From Chloroflexota bacterium (GTDB taxonomy: Bacteria > Chloroflexota > UBA11872 > UBA12225 > JAJDUF01), in NCBI GenBank assembly GCA_034422515.1, contig DAOUJP010000010.1, positions 200,123 to 264,122 of the forward strand: a stretch of 64,000 nucleotides of DNA, in the 5' to 3' direction. The notes beneath the pieces were generated by a model. It did not search any database, was not told the DNA's origin, and worked only from the letters and a program-made list of their open reading frames with translations. Below are positions 8,939-54,475 of the stretch, piece by piece. The position numbers were made by a program, and so were the translations under genes. Position 1 is the first letter of the stretch; each line of letters opens with the position of its first letter.

Positions 8939-9043
8939 CCGTACAATGAGGTAGGGGATGGGGCCATGGGAAGCTATCGGTCCTGCTTATCCTCTAGTCC
9001 GGGGAATCCTGATGCTGACAATCCCCTCACCCTGGCTCTCGCC

Positions 9044-9186: not shown

Positions 9187-9299
9187 GGCTGAGGAGGGCT
9201 GAGGGTAGAATGAGGCGGGGGTTGAAACCTTTTGGGGCGGGGGCGGTCTAAGGGGCAGAGACCGGAGCGGCCGCGGGGGCCGCTGGCAGTGAAGCCGAG

Positions 9300-10576: not shown

Positions 10577-10638
10577 GGGGCTGGACCTACCCCCCGGCCC
10601 CTTCCCTGCCAGGGAAGGGGGGTCATGGCGGCGCACGC

Positions 10639-12048
10639 TTATTCCTCGGATACTTCTTCTTCCTGTAACTGGGCTATTGCTGCCGCGATGTCCTCGTCGG
10701 TGGCGGCGTGCCATTCGCTGCTGCGACTTTCTAGCGCGGCGAGGACTTGCCGGTTGGTCTGCCTTTGCGCGTGGAGTTGCCGTGCGGCCGTGGTGACGCG
10801 CTCGCGGTGGCTGGCCGCCAGCGAGCCGTGTTTGCGGCGCACGATACCGGCAAACTCGCCGGTTTCGACCGCCAAGCCGGCTTGCTCGGCGCGGCGGAGC
10901 CAGGCGCGGAAGCCGACGGGACAGCGCAAGACTTCCTTTTCGCGTGCCCATTGTGGGCGGCGCTGCTCGACGACGCGGGCCAGCGCGCTGAGGAGCGCCG
11001 CGGCGTTGGCCGGCCGCACGCGGCGCACGAGTCGCTTGAGCGCCGGCGTGGCGTCCCAAGCGGCCGGGAGCTGGGCGAGGACCGGCCGGTAGAAGGTCCG
11101 CAGGGCACCATGGAGGCCGGCGCCCAGCCGCCAGTACCGCTCGGCCAGCGTCAGCTCTGCCGTGGCCAAGCGGCGGCCATCGAGCGCCGCTAGCCGCCCG
11201 GCCTCGGACCAGCCTTCGAGCGTGCCCAACATGGTTGCCGGCGCTACCGGTTCGAGGTGCGCCAACAGTTGAAAGCCATCGCCACGGGAGCGCGTGGCCG
11301 GGGCACCGCGCGGCAGCCGAGGCAGCCGGACACCGGGGCGGACGTTGGCGAGCAGCTTGTGAAGCCAGCGATTGAAGGCGCTGTCCGGGGCGATGAAGAT
11401 GCCTTCCGGGACGATAGTGCTACCCACGTTCCCGGCCATGAGCGCGGTCAGGGCCGCGTGGTAGGCCGGGGAGGGGGCCTGGGTGAGGATGGCCGCGGCG
11501 ACCTCCGGCACTTCATTGGCGATGCGCGGCAGGTTGCCGGCGAGGCGTGCCGCCGACACCTGCACCGGGTTGGCCGTATCGAGCGACGCCTTGAAATCGG
11601 CAGCCTGGACAACCAGCCGGTCGCTGCGTCCCAGGGTGCCGAGCAGCAAGAGGTCCGGGGCCGATACGCCGGCGGCGTGGAGGGCGGGGCCGGCGTCGGG
11701 ACCGGAATCGACGCTGATGAGGTGAGTGATGGTGGCGGTGCGGCCGGCGCCGAGCGGGACTGACCAGGGCAGGCGCTTTTCCAGGAGGGAGAGGCCAAGC
11801 TCTTCCCAGCGGCGGCCGATTAGGGCAGAGGCCTCGCCCCAGGCGCCGATGAGGCGCGAATACTCCTCAGCCTGGACGCTGGTGCCTGGGAATTCGGCAA
11901 TAGTGAGGAAGCGAGGCGGTAGGGGCAGGGTCGGCTTGGAGGGGCTAGGACCGCGTGCTTTGCCGGATGGTGACGGTCTCTGTCGCACAACAATTCCCAG
12001 GGTAGCGGTACGGATCGGCGTGCCGGCAGAGCGCGGCTGGCCGGGCAC
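10639..12048 (-). CDS. Hypothetical protein with acidic C-terminal tail; the start is uncertain
   Basis: 469-aa ORF with consistent codon usage. The only Met is at the ORF start, and the N-terminal region overlaps repeat A, so the true start may be an internal GTG or TTG. No recognised domain. Confidence 0.45.
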   Translation of the reverse strand: MPGQPRSAGTPIRTATLGIVVRQRPSPSGKARGPSPSKPTLPLPPRFLTIAEFPGTSVQAEEYSRLIGAWGEASALIGRRWEELGLSLLEKRLPWSVPLGAGRTATITHLISVDSGPDAGPALHAAGVSAPDLLLLGTLGRSDRLVVQAADFKASLDTANPVQVSAARLAGNLPRIANEVPEVAAAILTQAPSPAYHAALTALMAGNVGSTIVPEGIFIAPDSAFNRWLHKLLANVRPGVRLPRLPRGAPATRSRGDGFQLLAHLEPVAPATMLGTLEGWSEAGRLAALDGRRLATAELTLAERYWRLGAGLHGALRTFYRPVLAQLPAAWDATPALKRLVRRVRPANAAALLSALARVVEQRRPQWAREKEVLRCPVGFRAWLRRAEQAGLAVETGEFAGIVRRKHGSLAASHRERVTTAARQLHAQRQTNRQVLAALESRSSEWHAATDEDIAAAIAQLQEEEVSEE

Positions 12049-23435: not shown

Positions 23436-24122
23436 TCAGGTTGTTATGCCCAGCGCAGACAGCTTTTCCTCCCGGTAGAGGGATAGGACATCATTCAGTG
23501 CCGTGAGGTCACCGCCGAGATAAGCCTGAAGCCAACTCTGTAAGGCATCCAGGAAGTCTATATCAAGCACTACGGGACGCGGTACGAGCCAACGCTCGTG
23601 AACCACTTGCAGCCGGTCAAACCGCACGAAGCTCTCCCGAATACCATACTGGGTATCCGGAGGCATGTAGAAGAGTTGATTATAGGCATAGGCCTTTACT
23701 CGATCAATGAAGGTTTGTGAGTAGGGACGTTTCGTGCCTCTTGCCTGGAAGCCATACAGTGGGGCAACGACAAAGCCTTCATCGTGCTGGCGTGGGTGAT
23801 CCTGCCAGGAATCGCATGGTGAGGACACGACGACGGCCGGTCGCCACTTATGACGGCGGACAACGTCTACCTCGTCGGAACGCTGACCGATCTCATAGAC
23901 CGGGTAGCTTCCTTGGCGATCACGGAAATGCTGAGTTCCCACTTGTCTAATAATGTAGCTCTGCACCATCCTGGCATTGATGTCTCCGGCCTCCAGAACC
24001 GGAATTCGTGCTGCGTCAAGCAGATAAACGGCGGCGGTGTCGCAGATGCGGCCCGGTTCACATTGAGAATGCGCCAGTGGTTTTGGCTGCCGCATGTAGT
24101 AGCGGTCCAAAAGCTCGATCAT
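23436..24122 (-). CDS. Hypothetical protein, candidate toxin partner of the upstream Panacea-domain gene
   Basis: 228-aa ORF 9 nt downstream of the Panacea-domain gene on the same strand; lower GC than its surroundings; no recognisable toxin motif. Confidence 0.45.
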   Translation of the reverse strand: MIELLDRYYMRQPKPLAHSQCEPGRICDTAAVYLLDAARIPVLEAGDINARMVQSYIIRQVGTQHFRDRQGSYPVYEIGQRSDEVDVVRRHKWRPAVVVSSPCDSWQDHPRQHDEGFVVAPLYGFQARGTKRPYSQTFIDRVKAYAYNQLFYMPPDTQYGIRESFVRFDRLQVVHERWLVPRPVVLDIDFLDALQSWLQAYLGGDLTALNDVLSLYREEKLSALGITT

Positions 24123-24131
24123 GTTTCCGCC

Positions 24132-24866
24132 CTACTCGGCCTGCTCACGAATCGTGTTCGCTGCCTCCGGCGTGATCTGTACTGCTCGGCCGTCGAGGCG
24201 GCGGCGAGTCTGCGGCACCTGATCTTCGGCGTTGAGCAGCCGCATACCCTCCTCGTATACAGCGTCACGCGGAGCACGCGCTGGTCTAGTTCCGGCCCGG
24301 CGTGCTTCGCGCCGGCGAGCGAGCCGGCGTCGTAAGTCCGCGAGCACCTCATCCGACAGGCGGTGCGGCTCCCGTTGCGGCTGCGGATATTTTGGTGTGG
24401 CTCTCACTACTCGCGAGAAATCCAGCACCTCGCCCCGCGCCACGTTCTCCATCGGCTCTGTCCCAAAGTACACGTAATCGAGCAGCACCGGCAGGTCCTC
24501 CAGTCCCCATTGCTGCACAATGCGGTCTAGGATCACGCGATCAGGTAGAGTAAGGATGTCATCTACCGACACGTCCTCATAGCTCCCTAGCGCCACGTAA
24601 GCTCTGTGGCCGGAGGTCGTCGTGGCTTCATCGCTACCAAGATATGGCTCCAGAGCAGTGTCGTATGGTCCGTAGTGCAGAAACCGCCATTGGAGGCGCG
24701 TGAAGGGGTGACCGTGAACTCGATAATATTCGATGTCAAATAAATACAGCAGCTTTGCCAAGCGGGTACGGGCAGCGGTGCCTTCATGATCGCTCAACTT
24801 CTGGACGATATAGTCCACGAGCCGCTGAAGGTGAGGATGTAGTCGGCTAGACGCGGTGGTTGTCAT
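24132..24866 (-). CDS. Panacea-domain (DUF4065, SocA/PanA-like) putative antitoxin
   Basis: LAKLLYLFDIEYYRVHGHPFTRLQWRFLHYGPYDTALEPYL fits the DUF4065 core (KLLYfaD...G.P.T...w....yGPv...l). Arg-rich unstructured C-terminal tail. Confidence 0.6.
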   Translation of the reverse strand: MTTTASSRLHPHLQRLVDYIVQKLSDHEGTAARTRLAKLLYLFDIEYYRVHGHPFTRLQWRFLHYGPYDTALEPYLGSDEATTTSGHRAYVALGSYEDVSVDDILTLPDRVILDRIVQQWGLEDLPVLLDYVYFGTEPMENVARGEVLDFSRVVRATPKYPQPQREPHRLSDEVLADLRRRLARRREARRAGTRPARAPRDAVYEEGMRLLNAEDQVPQTRRRLDGRAVQITPEAANTIREQAE

Positions 24867-25130: not shown

Positions 25131-25206
25131 GCGGGCATGGTGTAGTTGGTAACACGCGACCTTCCCAAGGTTGAGATCGAGGGTTCGAGTCCCTTTGCCC
25201 GCTCCC
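25131..25206 (+). tRNA. tRNA-Gly (anticodon CCC)
   Basis: GCGGGCA acceptor; D-loop AGTTGGTAA; anticodon stem CGACC/GGTTG with loop TTCCCAA; T-arm GGGTTCGAGTCCC; 3' TGCCCGC. CCA is not exactly encoded. Confidence 0.85.
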
Positions 25207-35740: not shown

Positions 35741-36625
35741 TTACGCGACCTCGCGGCCGGTCAGGCGGCGGAGCGCGTCGGTGTACTTCTCTTGGGTCCG
35801 CGCGACCACCTCGGGCGGTAGCGGCGGGGCCGGCGGCGCTTTGTTCCAGCCAGTGGCGCTGAGGTAGTCGCGGACGTACTGTTTGTCGTAGCTGGGCGGG
35901 TTGCTGCCCGGCTCGTAGGTCTCCGTATCCCAGAAGCGCGACGAGTCCGGCGTCAGCAACTCATCAATCAAGATCAACTGACCCTCGGCGCTACCGTTGT
36001 CCTCGATGATGCCGAACTCCATCTTCGTATCGGCGATGATGATGCCGCGCTCCCGCGCTTGCTCCGCTGCGGCCGAGTAGACCGCGAGCGTCGCGTCGCG
36101 TAGCTGGGCCGCGAGCGGCCGGCCGACCATCGTTTCCACCTCCTCGAAGGTCAACGGCTCATCATGCCCGGTTTCGGCCTTGGTCGTTGGCGTGAAGATC
36201 GGCTCCGGGAGCTGCTGCGCCTCGATCAACCCCGCCGGCAGCCGAATGCCGCAGACGGTCCCCGACTTCTGGTACTCGGCCCAGCCCGAGCCGGTGATGT
36301 AGCCGCGCGCGACGCACTCGACGTCAATCCGCTCGGCCCGTCGCACCACCATGCTGCGACCGGTGAGCTGGGCGGCGTGTGCCTGTAGCTCCGCCGGATA
36401 CTCGTCCACGTCCGTTGTCAGCACGTGGTTGGGCAAGAGGTCTTGGGTCTGCTCGAACCAGTAGGCGGAGAGTTGGTTGAGCACCTTACCCTTCCCGGGG
36501 ATCGCCGTCGGCAGCACCACGTCGAACGCGGAGATGCGATCACTGACGACGATCAGTAGTTGGTCGCCCAGATCGTACACATCGCGTACCTTGTAGCGGA
36601 TAGCCAACTCCTCAAGCTGTGCCAT
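35741..36625 (-). CDS. purC: Phosphoribosylaminoimidazole-succinocarboxamide (SAICAR) synthase
   Basis: MAQLEELAIRYKVRDVYDLGDQLLIVVSDRISAFD...; own RBS AAGGAG 6 nt before the ATG; SAICAR_synt fold features throughout. Confidence 0.85.
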   Translation of the reverse strand: MAQLEELAIRYKVRDVYDLGDQLLIVVSDRISAFDVVLPTAIPGKGKVLNQLSAYWFEQTQDLLPNHVLTTDVDEYPAELQAHAAQLTGRSMVVRRAERIDVECVARGYITGSGWAEYQKSGTVCGIRLPAGLIEAQQLPEPIFTPTTKAETGHDEPLTFEEVETMVGRPLAAQLRDATLAVYSAAAEQARERGIIIADTKMEFGIIEDNGSAEGQLILIDELLTPDSSRFWDTETYEPGSNPPSYDKQYVRDYLSATGWNKAPPAPPLPPEVVARTQEKYTDALRRLTGREVA

Positions 36626-37252
36626 GACCTGCTCCTTTACTGCGGCTCTTGACTGCTGCTCGGCGATAGTGGGTTGCCGGGGAGCAAACCTCCTTTCATA
36701 CGTAGGTCCGAGGATGCGCCGCAGACGCTTGCGACCTTCCTGTATACGCCCCTTCACCGTAGTGATCGGTAGCTCCACAACCTCGGCGATCTTGCGGTAG
36801 CGCAGCCCGGCCACGTAGTACAGCGTGAGGGCCAGGCGCTGTGGTCGCGGCAAGGCCAGCAGGGCACGATTGAGGTCCTGGTGTAGCTCGCCGTGCTCGG
36901 CTGCACGCTCCGGGGACACTGCCCGCCCATCCTGCAGATCGCCCAAGGCGGGTGTATCGAGCGAGAGTGCCGGACGCCGCCGGCGACGCCAACGCAAACA
37001 CTCGTTGGCCACAATGCGGGCGAGCCAGCCGCCGAAGCGAGCCGGGTCGGCCAGGCTGTCGAGGTGCAGATACGCGGCGAGGAATGCCTGTTGGGCAACA
37101 TCCAAGGCATCTTCGCGGTGACCTAGATGGTAGTAAGCGAGTCCATAGGCCTCCGCCTGAAACCGCTCGACCAACTGCCCGAACGCGCCCTTATCCCCAG
37201 TCTGGCCGCGGCGGACTAGGTCGGCAGTGGATGAAGTCACTACGTCACTCAC
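36626..37252 (-). CDS. ECF sigma factor, in frame with and reading without a stop into purC
   Basis: Region 2 FLAAYLHLDSLADPARFGGWLARIVANECLRWRR; region 4 LPRPQRLALTLYYVAGLRYRKIAEVVELPITTVKGRIQEGRKRLRRIL. No stop codon before the purC ATG in the same frame. Confidence 0.6.
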
Positions 37253-37568
37253 GGGCGGCCTCCGTACTGGGCGCTGGCGAGGCGGCGGACTGGAAAGCGT
37301 CAGTGCGCCGCTGCGCCCCTCACAAGATACGATGCCGCGAGTCGGCGTTTGGGAAGAGGCCAGTTGCGGGGACGGGGTAGGTCCACTCCAGCGCGCCGAG
37401 CATCGTGATCCTCTACAAGTGATTCATCGTGAGCATCGGGGTTACACTCATGGTATAGTACGCGCGGCGACTACCAAGCAAGGAGACGGTGAGGTCGGCT
37501 GCGTTCGAGGAGCGCGCCGCGTTGGCGCGTGGCATGGTCTCGCCATCCGAATCAGGGGATGAGTCGTT

Positions 37569-38165
37569 ATGGTGAGCCGGAAGGATGGTTTCAGCGGGGA
37601 TTCCCAGGAGGCACATACTATAGATGATGTATATGCGAAGGTAAGGAGAGCGCTCTGTGGTTTCTTTAAATCGGATCGCGATTTGCTTGAAAAATGTGCA
37701 AACGAAAGGTCTATCACTCATAAACTAGCCGAGCATTTGCAGTGCCAGTTTAGGCATTTGAATGTGGATTGCGAATACAATAGACATGGTCTTAATGCCA
37801 AGATACTGCCTCGCTTTGCGGAGTGTATTGGTGAAGATGATTCAAGAGATAGGATGGTCTACCCGGATATTATCGTTCATCGGCGCGGAGAGGATAGATC
37901 CAACCTATTGGTGATTGAAGCTAAGAAGACTACCATGGAGGATATGGTATCGAAAAGCATGAAAAGAGGATTGAAGAGAGACAGGTGCAAATTGCGTGAA
38001 TTTACAAGAACACGCGGTTGCTACGAATACAAGTTTGGACTGTTGTTGGTATTTGACGTTGGTGAAGGTGGGAAGAAAATCTGTCGCGTCGAGTGTTTCA
38101 TCAAGGGGAAAAAGCGTAACAACACTGTCTGGGACTGTCTACGAGGCTTTCGCGGTGGTGGGTAA
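37569..38165 (+). CDS. PD-(D/E)xK-superfamily nuclease-like protein (low-GC island)
   Basis: CEYNRHG...YPDIIVHRRGEDRSNLLVIEAKK gives E...PD...(E)xK spacing; AT-rich codon usage; 198 aa. Confidence 0.55.
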   Translation: MVSRKDGFSGDSQEAHTIDDVYAKVRRALCGFFKSDRDLLEKCANERSITHKLAEHLQCQFRHLNVDCEYNRHGLNAKILPRFAECIGEDDSRDRMVYPDIIVHRRGEDRSNLLVIEAKKTTMEDMVSKSMKRGLKRDRCKLREFTRTRGCYEYKFGLLLVFDVGEGGKKICRVECFIKGKKRNNTVWDCLRGFRGGG

Positions 38166-38186
38166 TCGGGTAAGTGAGGGTGGACT

Positions 38187-38825
38187 ATGCGCCTACTGAT
38201 TGCTATATTTCTACTGCTACTTTCCTTGACTGTGCCAACTTCAAAGATTTTCGCTACGGATAGTGAACCTCGTCAGTGCGATTTTATACTTGGATTTGCT
38301 ACGCTCAAGGACTTGATTGATAGAGCAGAAGGCACAGAAAAAGTTGGCGATTGTCTTGAAGATCAACGCTTCAACCCAGAGAACGGTGATGCACTCCAAT
38401 AGACTACGGGTGGGCTATTGGTATGGCGTAAGGCTGATAACTGGACAGCATTTACGGATGGCTACCGTACCTGGATAAACGGACCGTATGGTCTACAGTC
38501 ACGTCTCAACACAGAATCATTTACTTGGGAAATGGGGGACACAGATGTACCCCTATTCAAGATGGATACAATTGAATATGATCGTTTTAACGCCTACAAG
38601 AATCATGTAGGTCAGACTGTCCGCATTATGGGCAGGGTAGCTAGAGGGGTATTGTTTGGATGGGGAAGCGATGGAGTGACACATTACTATGACAATATTG
38701 GGATAACATTTCTGGATGTAGGAGTATTTACGCCAGGGGGGGTGCTCACTATAGAGTGCCACACAACTTTATGGAAAGAGTCTCTTGTTACTATCGCAGT
38801 GATAGTGACAGGGACAAGTTTCTGA
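38187..38825 (+). pseudogene. Paralogue of the N-terminal domain of the SodC-like protein (45557-46336), interrupted by an in-frame TAG
   Basis: Signal peptide, then CDFILGFATLKDLIDRAEGTEKVGDCLEDQRFNPENGDALQ-stop-TTGGLLVWRKADNWTAFTDGYRTWING, collinear with CTFILGFKTLKGLIAAAEGPATVGECLENQRFDAHGNAAQRTAGGLMVWRKADNWTAFSDGYRTWVNQ. Both ORF segments (38187-38402 and 38418-38825) are in one frame. Confidence 0.6.
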
Positions 38826-39032
38826 CTGTGGAATATGGGGATGCCGTAGTAGTGGAAGGTGTAGTGACACCAGTAGGATCACCATCTACCAGCGTTGATC
38901 TAAGGAGATGCCGCCTTATCAGTAAAGTGGTAGGATTACCGTCTATAGAGCGTTAGTCTACGACCTGGCTCGCTCAGTGCTGATCTCGCCTGATTCTAAC
39001 GTTCAGAATCACTGCGGTCCGCTCTCCGCTGG

Positions 39033-39072
39033 GAGAGGAGGCCTGGATTCTCGCTTTCGCGGGGATGACGGG
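39033..39072. repeat. Family-E-like hairpin (GGATTCTCGCTTTCGCGGGGATGACGGGG)
   Basis: Marks the right edge of the low-GC island. Confidence 0.65.
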
Positions 39073-39091
39073 GCCGGGGCTGTTTAGGGGG

Positions 39092-40165
39092 TCAGGCGCT
39101 GGTGGTGGAGGTCCAGTCGAAGAGGACGCCGAGGTAGCGGTCCTGCTGATTGGCTAGTCCGGCGTAGGCTGCGGCGCACTGCGCCGGCGGCAGGACGTGG
39201 GTCCGCAGGGGATCAACGATCAGGCGGTCCGCGGCCATCCACTCCAGCAACTGGCGGTAGTTGCGAGTGATGGAGTGCTTCAGGCCCGGTGTGTCGGGGA
39301 TGGGGTAGAGCCACTCCAGGGCGCCGCGCAGCGTGATGCCTTGCAAGTGAATGCGGGTGAGCATCGGGGTGACGTTCATGGTGTGGTGGGCGCGGGGGCT
39401 GCCGAGCAGGATCAACTCGCCGTGGCGGCGGGTCAGCTCGACGGCCTCGGCGATCAGCTCGGAGCGTCCGATGGCTTCTACGGCGATGTCCACGCCATGA
39501 CCGGCGGTCCAATCGAGCACGGCGGCTGCGAGGTCGTCGGTCATCGGGTTGACGGTACGCGCGATGCCGCACTGGGCGGCGATGGCGCGGCGCTCGGCTA
39601 TCGGATCACTCGCCAGCACCTCGGCGCCAGCGAGTTGGAAGAGCTGCGCGGCGAAGTTGCCTACCAGTCCCAGGCCAACCACCAGTACTTTGTCGCCGGG
39701 AGAGACGTTGGCACTACGGACGGCTGTGATGGCGACGCCGGCCATCCGTACAAAGACGGCGCGCCGGTCGTCGAGGCCGAGGGCGGCGGGGACCGGTAGG
39801 CAGAAGTGGCCGGTGTCTACCTTGGCGAGGGAGGCGTGGTTGGCGAAGCTCGTGACCGTATCGCCAGCCTGTATGCCCTCGACTGCGCTGCCGACGGCGA
39901 GCACTTCGCCCAAGTGCCCATAGCCGGTAGGCCGGGGATACGGTTCCGGGCGGGAATCACCGGCCGGGCGATGCTCGCGCATGGTGGCCATCTGCTGCAC
40001 CAGGCCGGTATAGCTGGCTCCCTCCGTCCCCGGGCTGATGACACTGTATTTGCCGCGCACGAGCGCTTCGCGGGGGCCGAGCGCCGCATCGAGGGTGAAG
40101 TCCTCCAGCTCTACCTGCCGTTCGCTGGTGAAGACGACGCGCTTGCCGTGCAATTGTTTGGTCAT
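39092..40165 (-). CDS. Medium-chain dehydrogenase/reductase (zinc-type alcohol dehydrogenase-like)
   Basis: GroES-like N-domain; Rossmann motif VLVVGLGLVGNFAAQL; about 350 aa. Confidence 0.8.
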   Translation of the reverse strand: MTKQLHGKRVVFTSERQVELEDFTLDAALGPREALVRGKYSVISPGTEGASYTGLVQQMATMREHRPAGDSRPEPYPRPTGYGHLGEVLAVGSAVEGIQAGDTVTSFANHASLAKVDTGHFCLPVPAALGLDDRRAVFVRMAGVAITAVRSANVSPGDKVLVVGLGLVGNFAAQLFQLAGAEVLASDPIAERRAIAAQCGIARTVNPMTDDLAAAVLDWTAGHGVDIAVEAIGRSELIAEAVELTRRHGELILLGSPRAHHTMNVTPMLTRIHLQGITLRGALEWLYPIPDTPGLKHSITRNYRQLLEWMAADRLIVDPLRTHVLPPAQCAAAYAGLANQQDRYLGVLFDWTSTTSA

Positions 40166-40181
40166 TGATGTTGCTCCTTTG

Positions 40182-40242
40182 CCCCCCTATGGTCCCCCCG
40201 TTGCGGCGGGGGACATGGATTGCGGCTTCCGCCGCAATGACG
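40182..40242. repeat. Composite B plus E hairpin repeat
   Basis: CCCCCCTATGGTCCCCCCGTTGCGGCGGGGGAC then GGATTGCGGCTTCCGCCGCAATGACGG. Confidence 0.8.
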
Positions 40243-40294
40243 GATGGGGCCGCTGTGACGGGTGGGTGTTGTTTTCGTGCGACTGACCAGCGCG

Positions 40295-42478
40295 CTAGGC
40301 GGTGAGCTGTGCTTGGAGCGCGCTCGGATCCGTGACCGGCAGTTTACAGGTAAACCGTTGGCAGACGTAGGCGGTGGGGCTGCCGCTGATCGTTTCACGC
40401 CCGGCCAGCAGCGGCACGAGGTCGGCGGCTGCCGTGTCGTCCTCCGAGCGGAACGCCAGGACGCAGTTGGGCAGGTAGTCCTCCAGCACGAGCCGGAGGA
40501 GGCCGTCGGCCGCAGTCGTGCCGGGTGGCGCGACGATGGCTACCTCTTTGGGCGGTGCGAGGAAGAGGTCGAGGGCGCTCAACAGGCGCCCAAAGGCGCT
40601 GGGATGCTGGGCCATCGTATTGCCGAGGGCGCGGAAGAGCGCCAGCGCCGGCTCGGCGGCGTCCCAATCGCCGGTGAGCGCCGCGAGGCGGATCAGGACC
40701 TCGGCGGCTACGGAGTTGCCGGCCGGCGTGGCGTTGTCGAGCATGTCTTTGGGCCGGGCGATCAGCTCTTCGTGGTCGCTGGCGGTGTCGAAAAAGCCGC
40801 CACCGGGGCTATCGAGGAACAGCGCGTGCATGGTGTCGGTGAGTGCCTTGGCGCGGGTGATCCAGACGGGATCGAAGGTTGCCTCATACAGCGCCAGATA
40901 CCCGTCGGCGAGGTAGGCGTAGTCCTCCAGATAGCCGTTGAGCGTCGCGCGTCCTTCCTTCCAGGAGTGGAACAGCCGTACCCGGCCGGCATCGTCGGTG
41001 TGCCGTAGCTGCTCCCAGAGGAATTCGCCGTTCGCTACCGCGCGTTGGCGATAGTCGTCCCGGTCAAGCACGGCGCCGGCCTCGGCAAACGCCCGCAGCA
41101 TCAGACCGTTCCAGGAGGTCAGGACTTTCTCGTCGCGGTCGGGCTTTATCCGCTGCTCGCGCACCGCCCATAGGCGTTGACGGGCACGCGCAAGCGTCTC
41201 GCGTAGTTGCTCGACGGAAACCCCGGCCAAGTGGGCTACCACGTCTTCATCGCGGGGCACGTGGAGGATGTTCTTGCCCTCGAAATTTCCGTCGGGCGTG
41301 ACGTCGTAGTACAACTCCAAGAGCCGCGCCTCATCGCCGGTGCCGGACCCCGATCCGGTAGACGGAAGTGCCTGCCGGATTTCTTCAGGTGTCCAGACGA
41401 AGAACAGGCCCTCTTCACCCTCGCTGTCGGCGTCCTGCGTGGAGTAGAACCCGCCGGCCGGGTCGGTCATCTCGCGCTCGACGTAGGCCAGCACGTCCTC
41501 GACAACCTGCCGGTATAGCTCCTTGCCGGTGAGCTGATGGGCGTGGAGGTAGACGCAGACGAGCTGGGCGTTGTCGTAGAGCATCTTCTCGAAGTGCGGG
41601 ACGAGCCACTGCGCGTCGGTGGAGTAGCGATGGAAGCCGCCGCCGAGATGGTCGTAGATACCGCCGCGGGCCATACTCTCCAGCGTCTTCTCTACCAGCG
41701 GTAAGAGGGCGGCGTTGGCGGGGTGGTGCGAGCGGCGCAACAGGAGTTCCAGGTTCATCGGCTGGGGAAACTTGGGCGCGCTGCCGAAACCGCCGTAGCG
41801 GGTATCGAACGCGGCGCCGAGCGTCTGGGTGGCCTGGTTCAGGGTGGTAGCCGTCGGGAGGGCGGCGTCATCGTCCGGCGGGCGTACCTCCACCGCGGAC
41901 CGCCGGAGCAGGCTCGTGAGTTGCTGGGCGGTGCGGTCAACGGCGTCCCGCCGCTGGCGATAGGCGTCGGCCACGCTTTGCAGCACGCGCTGAAAGCTCG
42001 GCATTCCGTAGCGGTCAACGGGCGGGAAATAGGTGCCGCCGTAGAACGGCTCGCCATCGGGTGTCAGGAAGACGGTCATCGGCCAGCCGCCGTGCTGCGT
42101 GAGTGCCTGCACCGCCTGCATGTAGATCGAGTCGAGATCGGGGCGCTCCTCGCGGTCCACTTTGATGTTGACGAACAGGTCGTTCATTAGACGCGCCGTC
42201 GCCTCGTCCTCGAACGACTCGCGCTCCATCACGTGGCACCAATGGCAGGCGGAGTAGCCAATCGAGAGCAGGATTGGCTTATCCAACTCCCGTGCTTGCC
42301 GTAGTGCCTCCGGTCCCCAGGCGTACCAGTCCACGGGGTTGTAGGCGTGCTGCAAGAGATACGGGCTGGTCTCGTTAATCAGGCGGTTGGGCCGGTGCTG
42401 CGTGTGTGGCGGGTTGTCGGACACGGGACGCTCCCCCCTTGGGCAGTGGCTAGTAGTCAGTGGGTCGGTGCCGGGCAC
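40295..42478 (-). CDS. Thioredoxin-domain protein of the YyaL/SSP411 (DUF255) family with six-hairpin glycosidase-like domain
   Basis: [61 protein letters not shown] is the DUF255 hallmark; long alpha/alpha-toroid C-terminal region. Confidence 0.85.
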
Positions 42479-45556: not shown

Positions 45557-46336
45557 CTATCCAATGGGGTTGCGTTGGATCACGCCGCAGGCAACACGGG
45601 CACCGGCGCCAGGGTCCGCACCGTAGGTGTCGGGCTTCTCGTGGACGATGATCGCGGAGCCGTCGGCGTCGAAGATCGAATGGGCGGCGTCCGTCTCCAG
45701 CGTCACGGCAGCGGTGAATATATCGGCGCGGGCCGTTCCGTCGGCTGCAGCGTAGACATTCGGCGTGTCACCGGCGTGGACCCCGCCTTCATCCAGGAAG
45801 CCGTGCCCGGTGCCGCCGGGGTTGAAGTGCCCACCGGCTGCTGCGAAGCTCGGTGAGCAGGTGCCGAACTCGTGGATGTGGAAGCCGTGCCCGCCGGGCG
45901 TCAATCCCATCAAGTCTGCTGCGATCAGGACGCCGAATGGTCCTTGCGTCAGCGTGACCGTGCCCATCGCGGTGCCGTCCGGCCCGGCCAGCATTGCTGC
46001 GGCGCCATTGATGTGGACTGCCAATCCGTCTTCCCCTTGATTGACCCACGTGCGGTAGCCGTCAGAGAACGCCGTCCAGTTGTCAGCCTTGCGCCAGACC
46101 ATCAGTCCGCCGGCTGTGCGCTGCGCGGCGTTGCCGTGGGCATCGAACCGCTGATTCTCCAGACACTCGCCGACGGTCGCCGGCCCTTCCGCCGCAGCAA
46201 TCAGGCCTTTGAGCGTCTTGAAGCCCAAAATGAACGTGCAGTCAGCCGCCGTTGGCTGACCGGCCAGCACCGGCGAGGCTGCGATTGCCGTGCCAATGAG
46301 GACGATGACGGCAAACCAGGGTAGTCGGTAGCGCAT
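45557..46336 (-). CDS. sodC: Secreted Cu/Zn superoxide dismutase with an approximately 90-aa N-terminal extension domain
   Basis: Signal peptide; C-terminal SodC motifs GFHIHEFGTC, AGGHFNP, HAGDTPN, ACGVI; N-terminal CTFILGF...VWRKADNW domain shared with pseudogene 38187-38825. Confidence 0.85.
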   Translation of the reverse strand: MRYRLPWFAVIVLIGTAIAASPVLAGQPTAADCTFILGFKTLKGLIAAAEGPATVGECLENQRFDAHGNAAQRTAGGLMVWRKADNWTAFSDGYRTWVNQGEDGLAVHINGAAAMLAGPDGTAMGTVTLTQGPFGVLIAADLMGLTPGGHGFHIHEFGTCSPSFAAAGGHFNPGGTGHGFLDEGGVHAGDTPNVYAAADGTARADIFTAAVTLETDAAHSIFDADGSAIIVHEKPDTYGADPGAGARVACGVIQRNPIG

Positions 46337-50253: not shown

Positions 50254-51867
50254 TTACTCCTGGGGCCGTAGTGGCGCCGTGCTCACGGCTGGCGCGGCGC
50301 GTGGCGCCCGCTGATAGGTGACGTTGCCCATGTGAGGATAGGCGATCCCTTGCCCGGCGAACAGGTCGGCAACGGTAAGTAGCTGCAAGCCTGGGTAATC
50401 CTGGTCCCAGCCTGGGGAATGATAAGGGTCGGCGCTGGCGGCTTCCTGCCGCATTGCTCGCGTCGGCTCTTGCAGCGAGATGAATACGCCGATAGCAGCC
50501 TGCTCGCGTTGGACGACGCCCCGGAGGTCGCGGACGTGCGCCACGCCGGTCTTGCCGGCCTTGACCGACAAGATGATCTGCTTGGTGCGGCCCTTGGGAC
50601 CTTCATCGTGGAAGTAGAGCCGGCCGTCAATGCCGCGGTCTGCTCCCTTCTTTTGCTCTAGTGGCCGCGCCCCCACCTTCCCTAGTGCCCACCACTGGAA
50701 CTGATACGGGTCTTGTTGGGCGAGTGCTTGGGCGTCCGGCAGCGCCTTGGGTTCTCCAATCACCTCGTAAGTTTGGGCGATGTCCGGTCCGAACGCATCC
50801 TGGAGCCGATGGCGAATGAGGTTAATGGCGAGATGGGTGATGTCAATGCCGATCCAGCGGCGTCCGAGCTTTTGCGCCGCTGCAATTGCGGTCCCACAGC
50901 CGCAGAACGGATCGAGGACGACCGCGCCTTCATTGGAGGAAGCCAGAATGATGCGCTCCAACAGGGCTTCCGGTTTCTGGGTCGGATAGCCAAGGCGCTC
51001 CTTGGACTGAGCGGACACATTCCCTATGTCGGTCCAGAGATTCGTCGGTGCTCGTCCGCCAGACAAATAGGTCTTGCGGTATGGCCGTCCACTCTTTGAC
51101 CATACTAGGCGCCCTTCATTGTCAAGAGCCTCCAACTTACTGCGTTCCATGCGCCAGCCGAATTCTGGAACATAGCCTTTGTATTCATATGCGAGATTAG
51201 GTCTAGGCCCCATTGATGCCGTGCGTATGATCTCGTGGAGTCGATACTTCCCTCGTTCATCCTCGTAGCGATAAAAGTTAGCTACATACGACTCGTCGTG
51301 GGGAACGTATACGCGATTCCATATACGCTTCTTCGTTTTCGCGTAAAACAGGATCGTATCGGTCACATGAGCGAAACGACTGGCGTCATTGTGCGAACTG
51401 GTCCGCTGCCAGATAACCTCACTCCGAAAGCTCTCCCCACCGAAAATTGCGTCCAGCAATAGTTTGAGGTAGTGGCTGGCGTTCGAATCACAGTGGAGAT
51501 AGAGACTGCCCGTTGGCTTCAAGACGCGATGCAGCTCGACGAGGCGCGGCGCCATCATGGACAGGTACGCCAGCATATCGTTGTCGCCGAGGAAGAGGCG
51601 GAAGGCTTGCAGGACCTCGGAGACTTTGCCGCCGGCTTCCACGACCTCTCGGTACGCGGTTGCTGCTGCCTGGTCCCAGTGCCAGGTGTCCTCGAAGGCC
51701 TTGATCTGTGCTGCCGACTGTGAGCCGTCTCGTTCGGCGAACAGCACGTTATAGCTCTGGTTGCTCTTGAAGGGCGGATCGAGGTAGATGAGGTCTACCG
51801 ACTCGTCGGGGACATGCTCGCGGAGCACTTCGAGGTTGTCACCGTAATACAGCGTGTTGTCTGGCAT
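50254..51867 (-). CDS. Beta-class N6-adenine/N4-cytosine DNA methyltransferase fused to a C-terminal Mrr-like (PD-(D/E)xK) restriction-endonuclease domain
   Basis: Motif IV IYLDPPFKSN precedes motif I VVLDPFCGCGTAIAAAQKLGR (beta permutation). The C-terminal approximately 170 aa contains GADRGIDGRLYF...KQIILSVKAGK...AAIGVFISLQEPT, which resembles the Mrr catalytic-domain pattern (D.GIDG...Q/SxK). Confidence 0.75.
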   Translation of the reverse strand: MPDNTLYYGDNLEVLREHVPDESVDLIYLDPPFKSNQSYNVLFAERDGSQSAAQIKAFEDTWHWDQAAATAYREVVEAGGKVSEVLQAFRLFLGDNDMLAYLSMMAPRLVELHRVLKPTGSLYLHCDSNASHYLKLLLDAIFGGESFRSEVIWQRTSSHNDASRFAHVTDTILFYAKTKKRIWNRVYVPHDESYVANFYRYEDERGKYRLHEIIRTASMGPRPNLAYEYKGYVPEFGWRMERSKLEALDNEGRLVWSKSGRPYRKTYLSGGRAPTNLWTDIGNVSAQSKERLGYPTQKPEALLERIILASSNEGAVVLDPFCGCGTAIAAAQKLGRRWIGIDITHLAINLIRHRLQDAFGPDIAQTYEVIGEPKALPDAQALAQQDPYQFQWWALGKVGARPLEQKKGADRGIDGRLYFHDEGPKGRTKQIILSVKAGKTGVAHVRDLRGVVQREQAAIGVFISLQEPTRAMRQEAASADPYHSPGWDQDYPGLQLLTVADLFAGQGIAYPHMGNVTYQRAPRAAPAVSTAPLRPQE

Positions 51868-51885
51868 GGCTGTCTCACACCTAAT

Positions 51886-52893
51886 CTAAGCCCCGATTCC
51901 CGATCCGTCAGGTGTAGATGGTCTGGGTTTAATATAGAAGCACGAATGAAAATTATCCTTGATCTCATCCGCCATCGGTTCCTCGCTCTCGCGCTCATAG
52001 CTGACCTTAACATAGGCATCGTAGGAAACACGCACTAGGGTGTCCTCGCAGAGGCTCAGGCGCTCTCTGACCTCCTTTTCCGCTGCGGGCGCCGCGGTGG
52101 ACGGTGATCGCTTGCAGAGGCCCAGGTACTCTCTGACCTCCTTTTCGGGATTCCATCGAGTGGAAAACCGAAGCTGTACCGTAGATAGTGGGCCAACTCT
52201 CACATCATGCACATGTATTGCCCTTACCAATTCATAATTTCTGACAAATGTCCCGACACGAAACTGGCCTTCATAGTGGCGAATACGCCAGCTATCCATC
52301 CAACTGTTACGCAAGACGATGCTGGATCGAAATTCAATCTCATCATCGTGCCAAAAGGCGTGCTCCACGGGCCCACTCTCAATACTGAGTCCTTTATGTT
52401 CGTGGTCGGCGATCTCATTATCCTTGACTACCAGTTGCCGGATGCGTTTCGGATCCACCGCTGGGCCTAAGACAGGAATAGGGACAGTACGAATAGGAAA
52501 CTCCCACTCAGACCTAATGAGTCTATTCAATTTCACCTTCAGCACCGCTTCCATGGGCCGGCCCTCTTGTGGCGGCTCCCAGCAATCGACAACGGCTTCA
52601 ACTTCCTCGGGCAGTCCTGACACGGGCAACGGGACAGTTATTTCGGCACTGGTTTGGGCGTTCTTGACGTGCCTCTCGCACTTTGCACGATTCTTGACTT
52701 TCCAAACGAGCTTTACACCATCCACCCGCCCGATGCTGGGGGAGGTACTCGTGAACTTGATGCGGAAGGAACCAGCTTGGCCAGAAGCGACAGGGGGTAA
52801 GATTTCTACTCTGAGGTCCGGCATCACCAGTGAGCGCAAGAATCCGACCACAAACGGCAGCCATCCGGGTGAGGGCGCAGAGATAGGGTCCAT
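51886..52893 (-). CDS. Hypothetical protein (low GC) immediately upstream of the MTase::Mrr gene in the same operon
   Basis: Approximately 335-aa ORF with the internal repeat EKEVRE(Y/R)L(G/S)LC twice; start trimmed to MDPISAP because the ORF-track N-terminus overlaps the CoA-transferase gene; no recognised domain. Confidence 0.45.
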   Translation of the reverse strand: MDPISAPSPGWLPFVVGFLRSLVMPDLRVEILPPVASGQAGSFRIKFTSTSPSIGRVDGVKLVWKVKNRAKCERHVKNAQTSAEITVPLPVSGLPEEVEAVVDCWEPPQEGRPMEAVLKVKLNRLIRSEWEFPIRTVPIPVLGPAVDPKRIRQLVVKDNEIADHEHKGLSIESGPVEHAFWHDDEIEFRSSIVLRNSWMDSWRIRHYEGQFRVGTFVRNYELVRAIHVHDVRVGPLSTVQLRFSTRWNPEKEVREYLGLCKRSPSTAAPAAEKEVRERLSLCEDTLVRVSYDAYVKVSYERESEEPMADEIKDNFHSCFYIKPRPSTPDGSGIGA

Positions 52894-52900
52894 GGGCTTA

Positions 52901-54475
52901 CTATACCGGAGCGAGGCGCATTGGCTCGGGGTGGAAGAGGCGGGGGTCCATCGGGCGGAGGGGGGCTTTGATGCGCGGTTGGAAGGCCATTTGTGCGAGG
53001 ACATCGCGCTCCAGGTCCACGCCGGGGGCCAGCTCGGTCAGGGTCAGGCCCGCGGGGGTGAGAGTGAACACGGCCCGCTCCGTGACGTAGAGGACCGGCC
53101 GGCCGGCGGCCTGGGCCAAGGCGCCGTTGAAGGTGACTTGCTCGACCTGCCCGACGAGCTTCTGCTGCCGGCCTTCCTGCCGGATACGCAGGGCGCCGTC
53201 GTCAATCGTTACGGCGAGGCCGCCGGCCGTAAACGTGCCGCAGAAGACGACCCGCTTGGCGTTCTGGCTGATGTTGACGAAGCCGCCGGCGCCGGGCATC
53301 ACGCGACCGAAACGGCTGACGTTGACGTTGCCCTGCGCGTCAATCTGGGCCGCGCCCAGGCAGGCGATGTCGAGGCCACCGCCGTCGTAGAAGTCGAACA
53401 TATACGGCGCATCTATCAACGCCGTAGGCATATACGAGGCGCCGAACGAGAGGCCGCCAGCGGGCACGCCGCCAATGGCCCCGGTTTCGACGGTCAGGAC
53501 GAGATCGTCCATGATTCCTTCTTCGGCAGCAACCGGCGCGACGGCTTCCGGCAGGCCGATGCCCAGGTTCACGATGTCACCCGGCCGTAGCTCAAGGGCT
53601 GCCCGGCGGGCGATCACCTTGCGGGCGTCCAGAGGATGCCGGGGGAGCGCCGGCAGGTCGGCGCTCATATCGGCCACGTAGGCGGGATTGAACCGTTCAT
53701 CGAACGTCTGCCAATGCTCGTCCGGGTCCGCGACGACGACTGTATCCACAAGGATGCCGGGAATTCTTATGTCGCGCAGTGGGAGGCGGGAGGCGCTCAC
53801 GCGCTCCACTTGTGCAATCACGCGGCCGCCGCAGTTATGCACGGCTTGGGCGATGCTCAACATCTCGCCGTAGACCGCTTCCCGCTCCATGCTGATGTTG
53901 CCGTCGGGATCGGCGGTCGTGCCGCGGATGAGGCCGACATCCAGCTCTAGGCGGGGGTAGAAGAGGTACTCGGCGCCGTTCAAGCGGACCACCTGCACCA
54001 GATCGGTGGGAGTAGCCTGGGGGTTGATGCGCCCACCTTCCAGGCGCGGATCGGCAAAGGTGCGGAGACCGACTTGGGTGATGGTACCGGGTTTGCCGGC
54101 GGCAATGTCGCGGAAGAGGTGTATGATGACGCCTTGCGGGAAGTTGTAGCCTTCGATCTTGCCGGCCAAGGCCAACTCACAGATGTGCGGGGCCAGTCCC
54201 CAGTGACCGCCGATCACGCGGCGCAGCAGGCCCTCGTGACCCAGGTGATTGAGGCCGCGACGCCCCCGGTCACCCTGCCCGGCGCCGTAGATCAAGGTGA
54301 GGCCGCGCGGCCGGCCAGTGCGGAGGAAGCGCGTCTCCAGGCCGGCGGTCAGTGCCTCCGGGTGACCGATTCCGACGAACCCGCCGACCGCCACGGCGTC
54401 GCCGTCTTGCACCGCCGCGACGGCCGCATCAAGCGACGTGACTTTGCCCGCAACTGGCTCGTTTTCCATGCTCAT
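52901..54475 (-). CDS. Acyl-CoA:acetate/3-ketoacid CoA-transferase (fused alpha-beta subunits)
   Basis: CoA_trans family motifs across approximately 520 aa: [10 protein letters not shown], catalytic Glu region ...SENG-like MEREAVY..., C-terminal beta-subunit-like half. Confidence 0.85.

What the first reader, a model, noticed from the sequence alone, without database searches (positions are those of the whole stretch)
37400..39080. Low-GC island with a PD-(D/E)xK nuclease-like gene beside a gene interrupted by an in-frame TAG
GC falls to about 42-45% between the ECF-sigma/purC locus and the MDR dehydrogenase. The island encodes a 198-aa protein with a PD...E-x-K motif (YPDIIV...LLVIEAKK). Immediately after it is a signal-peptide protein whose reading frame is interrupted by a single TAG and then continues in the same frame (38187-38402, TAG, 38418-38825). 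A family-E hairpin repeat marks the right edge.
Basis: seen in the sequence. Interest (0 to 1): 0.55.

Follow-up and report, generated by a model that had tools for sequence, protein, structure and literature searches.

The report
Orphan defence-type nuclease gene plus pseudogene
A 1.4-kb AT-rich patch in a GC-rich Chloroflexota chromosome carries an intact small nuclease-like gene of the family of component A of the E. coli anti-phage system PD-λ-3, followed by a dead secreted-protein gene; this is an ordinary defence-gene remnant.

Summary
GC falls from about 0.65 to 0.43-0.47 over about 37,570-38,960.

**Gene A (37569-38165, 198 aa)**
- It matches the PADLOC model PD-Lambda-3_A (E = 5e-27).
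- It has an invariant E…D…PD…ExK signature and a confident model (pLDDT 91). The model's fold hits are weak but are nearly all restriction-endonuclease or RecB-like proteins.
- E. coli PD-λ-3 also has a HEPN protein and an Mrr-propeller protein. Neither lies beside A here.
- In 77 loci from other genomes, family members often sit inside type I restriction-modification operons.

**Age of the locus**
- Orthologues of A occupy the same site in six other Chloroflexota contigs, all low-GC.
- dN/dS is about 0.3, and dS is close to that of the flanking dehydrogenase.
- So this is an old, maintained locus, not a recent insertion.

**Gene B**
- B is a pseudogene. Its TAG replaces a conserved Gln codon (CAG/CAA) in a highly conserved secretion module.
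- TAG is the commonest stop codon in the window.
- The closest relative has deleted B, and more distant relatives carry a different gene there.

**Hairpin:** it is a generic intergenic repeat.

Novelty is modest.

The parts
37362..37481 (-). Relic of the 3' part of the neighbouring MDR dehydrogenase. It corresponds to dehydrogenase residues 253-292 and contains an in-frame stop. It lies in the divergent intergenic region upstream of A.
   Evidence: Direct repeat D1, 114 nt, 77% identical, 37367-37480 versus 39295-39408. tblastn gives 68% aa identity with a stop. The relic is present upstream of A in L001-L005 and L008.
37253..37568 (.). Intergenic region between the divergent sigma/purC ORF and gene A. 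It is still GC-rich and presumably holds both promoters. No sigma-70-like promoter match was reported in it.
   Evidence: GC is 0.64 up to about 37560. The last 41 nt before the A start are 100% identical in L001. 37299-37468 is 92% identical in L003-L005, more than the flanking genes. No promoter-like site inside it.
37569..38165 (+). Gene A: intact 198-aa PD-(D/E)xK-fold protein of the PD-Lambda-3_A family. Predicted catalytic set: E46/E55 (helix), D67/E69, D100, E117, K119.
   Evidence: PADLOC PD-Lambda-3_A at E = 5e-27. More than 1500 homologues. Invariant residues. AF2 pLDDT 91.3 with an alpha-beta-beta-beta-alpha-beta core. Foldseek hits to REase-like, RecE, HincII, SfiI, NucC and Cas4. 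dN/dS 0.24-0.36.
38187..38825 (+). Gene B, a pseudogene. It has a signal peptide and a conserved ~85-aa Chloroflexota secretion-associated N-terminal module, broken by TAG at 38403-38405, followed by an orphan C-terminal part.
   Evidence: Translation. 2169 homologues covering only the N-terminal 33-58%. Gln in 11 and His in 2 of 13 homologues at the TAG column. Homologous codons are CAG/CAA. The C-terminal 96 aa have no hit among 1.84 billion representatives. Mostly deleted in L001.
38756..38956 (+). ORF in the +2 frame overlapping the end of B (…DKFLTVEYGDAVVVEGVV…). It may be the frame-shifted tail of B, which would be a second lesion.
   Evidence: No family or homologue support, so this is unverified.
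38985..39075 (+). Cluster of three short hairpins. The last one (39045-39071) is a copy of the genome-wide repeat GGATT-N14-RATGACGG.
   Evidence: Fold (z = -1.1, so not unusually stable). Repeat family: 10 matches against 2.07 expected, and no shuffle reached 10. Retained in L001.
39092..40165 (-). Resident MDR/zinc-type dehydrogenase that bounds the patch on the right. It is the syntenic anchor in all related contigs.
   Evidence: Pfam ADH_zinc_N 8.7e-20. 89-93% nt identity in L001-L005.
35741..37252 (-). Left anchor: a single 503-aa ORF with an ECF sigma part (regions 2 and 4) and SAICAR synthetase (PurC).
   Evidence: Pfam. The same fused ORF is found in L008.

Best explanation
The low-GC patch is an old, vertically kept accessory locus of an uncultured GC-rich Chloroflexota lineage, not a freshly inserted mobile element.

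Its one functional gene, A, encodes a small stand-alone PD-(D/E)xK-fold protein. It belongs to the same protein family as component A of the E. coli abortive-infection system PD-λ-3.

Inferred mechanism: A is a metal-dependent nuclease. D100, E117 and K119, helped by the invariant acidic residues E46/E55 and D67/E69, would form the active site. It would act as a defence or conflict effector against invading nucleic acid. Family members are usually found in operons with other defence genes, most often between hsdM and hsdS of type I restriction-modification systems. Here A stands alone. The HEPN (B) and Mrr-propeller (C) partners of PD-λ-3 are not next to it, and no type I R-M genes are either.

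The gene downstream, B, is a xenologous copy of a Chloroflexota secreted-protein family. It replaced an OB-fold lipoprotein gene at this position and has since died through CAG/CAA→TAG, and possibly a frameshift as well. It has no functional link to A.

Shown: composition, family membership, fold class, conservation of motif residues, synteny, purifying selection on A, and the pseudogene status of B. Inferred: nuclease activity, a defence role, and autonomy of A without partners.
For: **Composition**
-.

**Family and fold of A**
- PADLOC PD-Lambda-3_A at 5e-27 over profile positions 19-150 of 159.
- 46% identity to E. coli A over residues 24-122.
- The E. coli locus L006 reproduces the published 2,759-bp three-gene system.
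- Invariant E46, H51, K52, E55, D67, E69, D100, H104, R106, E117 and K119 in 45 homologues.
- AF2 pLDDT 91.3, pTM 0.87. D100 lies just before strand 101-105, and E117/K119 lie in strand 114-121.
- Foldseek PDB: 3ijm restriction-endonuclease-like fold (E 8.7e-4, probability 1.0), then RecE, MGME1, HincII, SfiI, NucC and AddAB.
- BFVD: Cas4/RecB and PD-(D/E)xK phage proteins.

**Defence context of the family**
- Among 77 loci, an HsdS-type neighbour occurs in 25, HsdM in 19 and HsdR in 12.
- Confirmed by Pfam.
- Other neighbours include SMODS, AAA_21/AbiEii-like, Fic/RhuM, HigB and GmrSD_N.
- PD-λ-3 is reported as an abortive-infection system (PMC13190303; PMC9519451 supplement).
- Defence genes embedded in type I R-M clusters are an established pattern (10.1101/2024.04.04.588119).

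**Old resident locus**
- A lies next to the same dehydrogenase/DsbH-like genes in L001-L005 and L008.
- A dS is 0.17-0.84 against dehydrogenase dS of 0.10-0.42, with the same grouping of the loci.
- dN/dS is 0.24-0.36.

**B is dead**
-.
Against: - No nuclease activity or phage phenotype is known for any solo A-like protein. In E. coli the system has three genes, and which one is the effector is not established in the texts I could read.
- Foldseek TM-scores are low (0.36-0.46), and only two PDB hits pass E = 0.001. One of those, human Rep15, is not a nuclease.
- Profile searches against PDB sequences and against an Mrr_cat domain gave nothing significant.
- Catalytic-residue superposition was not possible.
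- The persistence of low GC3 (about 0.5 against 0.83) across orthologues at dS up to about 0.8 is not explained by simple vertical descent. It could mean repeated allele replacement from a low-GC pool.
- The window's immediate neighbours are housekeeping genes, not a defence island.
Confidence: 0.68

Rival explanations
1. The patch is a recently acquired mobile genomic island (phage, plasmid or integrative-element remnant) that integrated into or next to the dehydrogenase gene. The duplicated dehydrogenase segment would be its attachment-site scar.
For: Strong compositional contrast. A 114-nt direct repeat of dehydrogenase sequence brackets A, B and the 3' end of the dehydrogenase. A-family genes are on 48 plasmids, 38 of them conjugative. 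They are lower in GC than their flanks in 97% of 73 loci.
Against: No integrase, transposase or nearby tRNA: the only tRNA is at 25131. No DNA match in phage or plasmid collections. The dehydrogenase relic and A are present at the same site in all seven related loci, including a different species (L008, A 57% identical). Synonymous divergence is comparable to the flanks and the grouping of the loci is the same. The acquisition is therefore ancient. Only the B slot has turned over recently.
Confidence: 0.12
2. The in-frame TAG in gene B is decoded (pyrrolysine, suppressor tRNA or programmed read-through), so B makes a full-length secreted protein, perhaps working with A.
For: The reading frame stays open for 140 codons after the TAG. 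The flanking residues are still 76-87% identical to homologues, so the lesion is young. B follows A by 21 nt on the same strand.
Against: TAG terminates 30 of 45 high-GC3 ORFs in the window, so it is the main stop codon. Homologues have Gln (11 of 13) or His at this column, with CAG or CAA codons. The nearest relative L001 has deleted about 715 bp of B and kept only the signal peptide. L002-L005 and L008 carry an unrelated minus-strand OB-fold gene instead. The part of B after the conserved module has no homologue anywhere.
Confidence: 0.03
3. A is a catalytically silent or purely regulatory/structural PD-(D/E)xK-fold protein, for example a DNA-binding adaptor or sensor that normally serves partner enzymes such as HsdMS or the HEPN/Mrr proteins. 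In this genome it is a functionless leftover.
For: In PD-λ-3 two other proteins carry recognised nuclease/RNase domains (Mrr_cat, HEPN), so A need not be the effector. Many family members are embedded in multi-subunit R-M operons. No partner is adjacent here. Fold matches to active nucleases are weak.
Against: All canonical catalytic positions are invariant across bacterial and archaeal homologues. That is unusual for inactivated PD-(D/E)xK domains. A is under purifying selection as a solo gene across this Chloroflexota clade (dN/dS about 0.3), so it is not a decaying leftover. Other solo copies exist, for example on a Photobacterium plasmid.
Confidence: 0.17

Closest known systems
PD-λ-3 component A (E. 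coli ECOR28, RCP74640-42; PADLOC PDLC03986), from Vassallo et al. 2022
   Same: Same protein family: hmmscan E = 5e-27, 46% identity over the core (residues 24-122). The NERSITHKLAE helix, VDCEYN, PDIIVH and LVIEAKK motifs are shared.
   Different: E. coli A is 159 aa and is co-operonic with a Hypoth_Ymh/HEPN protein and an Mrr_cat+β-propeller protein. The window has neither. The window protein is 198 aa with a divergent C-terminal third. The host is Chloroflexota, whereas complete PD-λ-3 was reported only from Proteobacteria (10.1101/2024.10.26.620412).
Defence genes embedded in type I restriction-modification operons (e.g. TgvAB in Vibrio cholerae VPI-2)
   Same: Many A-family members lie between hsdM and hsdS/hsdR on the same strand with short gaps, e.g. 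L012: hsdM 4342-5916, A 6001-6501, hsdS 6512-7819, hsdR 8532-11678. This is the 'embedded' layout described for TgvAB.
   Different: TgvAB are GmrSD-like type IV enzymes, unrelated in sequence. The window copy is not embedded in any R-M operon.
PDB 3ijm, restriction-endonuclease-like fold protein from Spirosoma linguale, and minimal PD-(D/E)xK nucleases generally (RecE, HincII, SfiI, NucC, Cas4/RecB)
   Same: Best structural matches of the AF2 model. Same core order: helix, three strands, helix, strand, with D before strand 2 and ExK on strand 3.
   Different: Sequence identity is 8-15% and TM 0.2-0.46. There is no sequence-level link to any solved structure. 3ijm itself has no assigned function in its title.
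Chloroflexota secreted proteins with the 'C-F-LGFATLK…NWTAFTDGYRTWINGP' N-terminal module (for gene B)
   Same: B's residues 31-115 are 76-87% identical to this module, which precedes LRR, LDL-receptor-class-B/SGL, META, SBP_bac_5 or Sod_Cu domains in homologues. There is a native paralogue at window 45557-46336.
   Different: B is low-GC (GC3 about 0.4 against 0.62-0.77 in two homologues). It carries a nonsense codon, and its C-terminal part matches nothing.

Membership tests
PD-λ-3 anti-phage system (three genes) | Component A homologue present | tested here: met
   PADLOC PD-Lambda-3_A at E = 5e-27, profile positions 19-150 of 159. BLASTP to E. coli A at 7e-25.
PD-λ-3 anti-phage system (three genes) | Adjacent component B (Hypoth_Ymh / HEPN) | tested here: not met
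   In E. coli, B hits PD-Lambda-3_B at 1e-179 and PF09509. The window's neighbours are sigma/purC, pseudogene B and a dehydrogenase, and none hits PADLOC or HEPN families. PD-Lambda-3_B is not among the 25 families shown when all 53 window ORFs were scanned.
PD-λ-3 anti-phage system (three genes) | Adjacent component C (Mrr_cat nuclease + β-propeller) | tested here: not met
   In E. coli, C has PF04471 and DUF5074. Nothing comparable lies next to A. The only Mrr_cat in the window is a methylase fusion 12 kb away at 50254-51867.
PD-λ-3 anti-phage system (three genes) | Abortive-infection protection against phage | not testable with these tools
   The phenotype is reported for the E. coli system only.
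PD-(D/E)xK nuclease superfamily | α-βββ-α-β core fold | tested here: met
   AF2 model, pLDDT 91.3: H46-60, E65-68, E101-105, E114-121, H129-145, E156-163. The fold hits are mostly restriction endonucleases and RecB/Cas4-like nucleases.
PD-(D/E)xK nuclease superfamily | Conserved D … (D/E)-x-K on strands 2 and 3, plus an acidic residue on helix 1 | tested here: met
   D100, E117, K119, E46 and E55 are invariant in 45 homologues. They are positioned at the expected secondary-structure elements.
PD-(D/E)xK nuclease superfamily | Motif residues superimpose on a solved nuclease active site | tested here: inconclusive
PD-(D/E)xK nuclease superfamily | Metal-dependent nuclease activity | not testable with these tools
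   Needs biochemistry.
Recently integrated genomic island / mobile element | Atypical base composition and codon usage | tested here: met
   GC 0.43-0.47 against 0.65. GC3 0.36-0.48 against 0.80-0.84.
Recently integrated genomic island / mobile element | Mobility genes (integrase, transposase) or a tRNA target | tested here: not met
   No such ORFs between 37250 and 39090. The only tRNA is at 25131.
Recently integrated genomic island / mobile element | Presence/absence polymorphism among close relatives | tested here: not met
   A and the dehydrogenase relic are present in all seven syntenic loci. Only the B slot varies.
Programmed TAG recoding | TAG rarely used as a terminator in the genome | tested here: not met
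   30 of 45 long high-GC3 ORFs end in TAG.
Programmed TAG recoding | TAG conserved at the site in homologues | tested here: not met
   Gln in 11 and His in 2 of 13 homologues. Codons are CAG or CAA. The gene is deleted in L001.
Type I R-M-embedded accessory gene | Flanked by hsdM and hsdS/hsdR in one operon | tested here: not met
   True for about a quarter to a third of family members, but the window copy lies between sigma/purC and a dehydrogenase.

The most novel reading that the evidence does not exclude
Solo PD-λ-3A-like proteins may be an unrecognised, autonomous single-gene nuclease defence module. The module is spread across most bacterial and archaeal phyla. It plugs into type I R-M operons, into PD-λ-3, or stands alone. 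In this Chloroflexota clade it has been fixed at one chromosomal site and kept AT-rich through speciation. Current defence-finding tools, which require the three-gene system, would miss all of these.
Probability: 0.25. Interest if true: 0.55.

Novelty: new member of a known kind. Interest (0 to 1): 0.3.

Why it matters
For this window it matters little: one orphan defence-type gene and one pseudogene.

The wider points may be useful to people cataloguing anti-phage systems:
- The A component of PD-λ-3 belongs to a very large family: more than 1500 protein clusters and at least 535 loci in species-representative genomes, including archaea.
- The family is far more widespread than the three-gene system itself.
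- It is frequently wedged between hsdM and hsdS of type I R-M operons.
- It can persist alone under purifying selection.

This suggests A is a portable nuclease module in its own right. It also gives a concrete set of loci in which to test what the component does.

The locus is also a clean small example of an AT-rich gene that has not drifted towards host composition over substantial divergence.

Tried and rejected
- Pfam and NCBIfam scans of A and B found nothing. Only PADLOC recognised A.
- A profile search of A against all PDB sequences gave one chance hit, E 0.98.
- hhalign of the A profile against the Mrr_cat domain of PD-λ-3 C was not significant. A two-sequence Mrr_cat alignment I built for this was poor, because I chose the wrong window coordinates, and was dropped.
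- DNA-level BLAST of the island against phages and plasmids found no match. Protein-level search gave one weak phage hit (30%).
- I tested whether B is related to the OB-fold lipoprotein gene that occupies the same slot in L002-L005. It is not (BLASTP E = 27), nor does either hit PD-Lambda-3_B.
- The C-terminal half of B had no hit by blastx against 120 retrieved homologues or by an exhaustive phmmer search. The suspected frameshift therefore remains unproven.
- Rfam found nothing in 36500-40500.
- The promoter/terminator scan gave no more than chance.
- The hairpin cluster is not unusually stable (z = -1.1).
- I considered an attachment-site origin for the dehydrogenase repeat. I rejected it as a recent event because the relic is shared by all relatives.
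Full report

Yes.
- In 400-nt windows, GC drops from 0.64-0.69 to 0.43-0.47 between about 37,600 and 38,999, then returns to 0.67 by 39,000-39,400.
- The window as a whole is 64.3% GC.
- The contrast is stronger at third codon positions. GC3 is 0.48 for ORF A and 0.36-0.42 for the pieces of gene B. It is 0.80-0.84 for the sigma/purC ORF, the dehydrogenase and the DsbH-like gene.
- ORF A is 37569..38165 (+), 198 aa, and contains YPDIIVH and LLVIEAKK.
- Gene B starts at 38187 with a signal-peptide-like N-terminus, meets TAG at 38403-38405, and continues in the same frame to 38825.
- A hairpin repeat lies at 39045-39071.

**2. Gene A: family and fold**

- Pfam and NCBIfam do not recognise A.
- The PADLOC model PD-Lambda-3_A matches at E = 5e-27 over 132 of its 159 positions.
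- A has more than 1500 homologous protein clusters, nearly all unnamed and 150-200 aa long.
- In an alignment of 45 of them, the invariant residues are E46, S48, H51, K52, E55, Q58, D67, C68, E69, Y70, N71, P99, D100, H104, R106, N112, E117, K119 and D138.
- AlphaFold2 on that alignment gives a confident model (pLDDT 91.3, pTM 0.87). Its order is helix 46-60, strand 65-68, strand 101-105, strand 114-121, helix 129-145, strand 156-163.
- D100 immediately precedes the second core strand, and E117-x-K119 lie on the third. That is the canonical PD-(D/E)xK layout (established knowledge of the superfamily).
- Foldseek against the PDB returns 3ijm, a restriction-endonuclease-like fold protein (E 8.7e-4, probability 1.0). 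Below it are RecE, MGME1, HincII, SfiI, NucC and AddAB.
- Against viral models the top hits are Cas4/RecB-family and 'PD-(D/E)XK nuclease superfamily' proteins.
- The scores are weak (TM 0.2-0.46), but the lists point mainly in one direction.

**3. What PD-λ-3 is, and whether this is one**

- The supplement of Vassallo et al. 2022 lists PD-λ-3 as three proteins (RCP74640-42) spanning 2,759 bp in ECOR28, annotated 'Nuclease, HEPN'.
- A later paper uses it as an abortive-infection control (PMC13190303).
- An E. coli IncHI1B plasmid found by tblastn carries the same 2,759-bp unit next to BREX. Its three genes are:
  - a 159-aa protein (PD-Lambda-3_A, 331 bits);
  - a 267-aa Hypoth_Ymh/HEPN protein (PD-Lambda-3_B);
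  - a 477-aa Mrr_cat plus propeller protein.
- The window's A is 46% identical to E. coli A over residues 24-122.
- The window has no B or C equivalent next to A.
- So A is a member of the A protein family, but the locus is not a PD-λ-3 system.

**4. Where the family lives**

- A scan of one genome per species found at least 535 loci. They span Chloroflexota, Nitrospirota, Deltaproteobacteria, Patescibacteria, Planctomycetota, Actinomycetota, Alphaproteobacteria and several archaeal lineages.
- I called genes crudely in the 80 best loci and clustered the three neighbours on each side. The largest clusters are HsdS-like (25 of 77 loci), HsdM-like (19) and HsdR-like (12).
- Pfam confirms N6_Mtase+HsdM_N, Methylase_S and HSDR_N/SWI2_SNF2/T1RH-like_C for the representatives.
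- Among 140 immediate neighbours, Methylase_S (18) and N6_Mtase (13) are by far the commonest families.
- A typical layout is L012: hsdM 4342-5916, A 6001-6501, hsdS 6512-7819, hsdR 8532-11678.
- Other neighbours include SMODS, AAA_21/AAA_15, Fic+RhuM, HigB, GmrSD_N and YhcG nuclease.
- Embedding of independent defence genes inside type I R-M clusters is documented for TgvAB.
- A-family genes have lower GC than their flanks in 97% of 73 loci, with a median difference of -0.073. AT-richness is therefore a family trait.

**5. History of this particular locus**

- The closest homologues of A lie at the same chromosomal site in metagenomic contigs:
  - L001: A 92% aa identity.
  - L002: 70%.
  - L003-L005: 62%.
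  - L008: 57%, a named Chloroflexota MAG chromosome.
- In each, the same dehydrogenase, DsbH-like thioredoxin, AP_endonuc_2 and M3 peptidase genes lie to the right.
- A short dehydrogenase relic lies upstream of A in all of them. It corresponds to residues 253-292, is 68% identical and contains a stop.
- Nucleotide identity to the window is 88-93% for the flanking genes but 90%, 76% and 71% for A.
- Nei-Gojobori estimates give A dN/dS of 0.24-0.36 with dS of 0.17-0.84. The dehydrogenase has dS of 0.10-0.42 and dN/dS of 0.04-0.18. The grouping of the loci is the same for both genes.
- All five orthologues whose GC3 I computed (the window, L001, L002, L004, L005) have GC3 of 0.48-0.53. L008's copy is 0.44 GC overall.
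- The simplest reading is an ancient acquisition, followed by vertical descent under purifying but relaxed selection.
- There is no integrase, transposase or nearby tRNA, and no DNA similarity to phages or plasmids.
- Why the gene has stayed AT-rich is unexplained.

**6. Gene B**

- The reconstructed product has 2169 homologues, but they cover only its first 33-58%.
- That part is a signal peptide followed by an ~85-aa module: C-F-LGFATLK…GDCLE…NPENGDALQQTTGGLLVWRKADNWTAFTDGYRTWINGPYGLQ-RLNTE.
- In homologues this module precedes LRR, LDL-receptor-class-B/SGL, META, SBP_bac_5 and other domains.
- A native high-GC paralogue in the window (45557-46336) joins it to a Cu/Zn superoxide dismutase domain.
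- At the TAG column, 11 of 13 homologues have Gln and 2 have His. The homologous codons in two loci are CAG and CAA. A single C→T change explains the TAG.
- TAG is the most used stop codon here: 30 of 45 high-GC3 ORFs.
- In L001 about 715 bp of B (window about 38262-38975) are deleted. Only the signal peptide is left, fused to the hairpin region.
- In L002-L005 and L008 the slot holds an unrelated minus-strand, low-GC, tRNA_anti-like lipoprotein gene.
- The 96 residues after the conserved module match nothing among 1.84 billion representatives.
- A +2-frame ORF (38756-38956) hints at a further frameshift, but this is unverified.
- Conclusion: B is a young pseudogene in a slot that turns over, and it is not a partner of A.

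**7. The hairpin**

GGATT-N14-RATGACGG gave 10 matches in the window against about 2 expected by chance. About 7 of them are convincing copies: 2080, 9161, 14601, 39045, 40217, 55491 and 59571. It is a generic intergenic repeat and is retained in L001.

**8. Verdict**

The patch is best explained as follows:
- an orphan, still-maintained member of the PD-λ-3A family of small PD-(D/E)xK-fold proteins, most likely a nuclease with a defence-type role;
- plus a dead secreted-protein gene;
- at an old accessory locus of an uncultured Chloroflexota lineage.

This is a new member of a known kind, of modest interest. The family-level observations (very wide distribution, frequent embedding in type I R-M operons, solo persistence) are the part worth following up.

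Noticed in passing
window 35741-37252 (-); L008 4030-5706 (-): ECF sigma factor (regions 2 and 4) and SAICAR synthetase (PurC) lie in one uninterrupted ORF: 503 aa here and 558 aa in another Chloroflexota species. Either it is a real sigma-PurC fusion or there are two genes in one frame with no stop between them. L003-L005 lack this ORF between the sulfatase and A.
   Followed up: partly
whole window: TAG is the dominant stop codon. 30 of 45 ORFs of at least 200 aa with GC3 above 0.72 end in TAG, 8 in TGA and 7 in TAA. The ORF set is crude.
   Followed up: partly
window 38277-38531 (+) and 46007-46240 (-); proteins P0121-P0240: A very conserved ~85-aa post-signal-peptide module with two Cys and the motif NWTAFTDGYRTWINGP has no Pfam family. 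It has more than 2000 homologues, apparently all Chloroflexota-type. It is fused to many different extracytoplasmic domains (LRR, LDL-receptor B/SGL, META, SBP_bac_5, Sod_Cu).
   Followed up: partly
loci L008-L087 (e.g. L012 4342-11678): PD-λ-3A-like genes sit between hsdM and hsdS/hsdR of type I R-M operons in roughly a quarter to a third of the sampled genomes. They are AT-richer than their flanks in 97% of loci.
   Followed up: yes
alignment A1, positions 68, 176, 185, 188 of the window protein: About half of the A family has four Cys: C68 invariant, C176 in 73%, and a CxxC at 185/188 in about 50%. The arrangement is one Cys before the core and three after it, which recalls from memory the Fe-S/Zn staple of Cas4/AddB-type nucleases. 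The window clade has N185 and W188 instead.
   Followed up: no
window 6648-8310 (+): A second low-GC patch (0.46-0.51) holds two ORFs (242 and 261 aa; GC3 about 0.5). Neither has a Pfam or PADLOC match.
   Followed up: partly
window 50254-53004 (-): A 537-aa fusion of an N6_N4 DNA methylase with an Mrr_cat/NA-iREase1 domain (GC3 0.70). Next to it is a 372-aa ORF with no family hit (GC3 0.60). This may be a restriction-modification-like module.
   Followed up: partly
window 23436-24866 (-), tRNA-Gly at 25131-25205: Two lower-GC3 ORFs (0.59, 0.64) lie beside the only tRNA gene. One has a SocA/Panacea antitoxin domain, which suggests a small toxin-antitoxin islet at a tRNA.
   Followed up: no
window 2080, 9161, 14601, 39045, 40217, 55491, 59571: A family of 27-nt hairpin repeats, GGATT-N14-RATGACGG, in intergenic spaces (REP-like).
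   Followed up: partly
L003/L004 1713-4213: In relatives that lack sigma/purC at this site, the region beyond the sulfatase carries an NTase_sub_bind (HEPN-type) / NTP_transf_2 pair and a 580-aa AAA_15/AAA_21 ATPase. That neighbourhood is defence-like.
   Followed up: no
window 37569-38165 and orthologues in L001, L002, L004, L005, L008: Unexplained: A stays at GC3 of about 0.5 (L008: 0.44 GC overall) in a GC3 of about 0.83 background, across orthologues that differ by dS up to about 0.8. It shows no sign of drifting towards host composition.
   Followed up: partly
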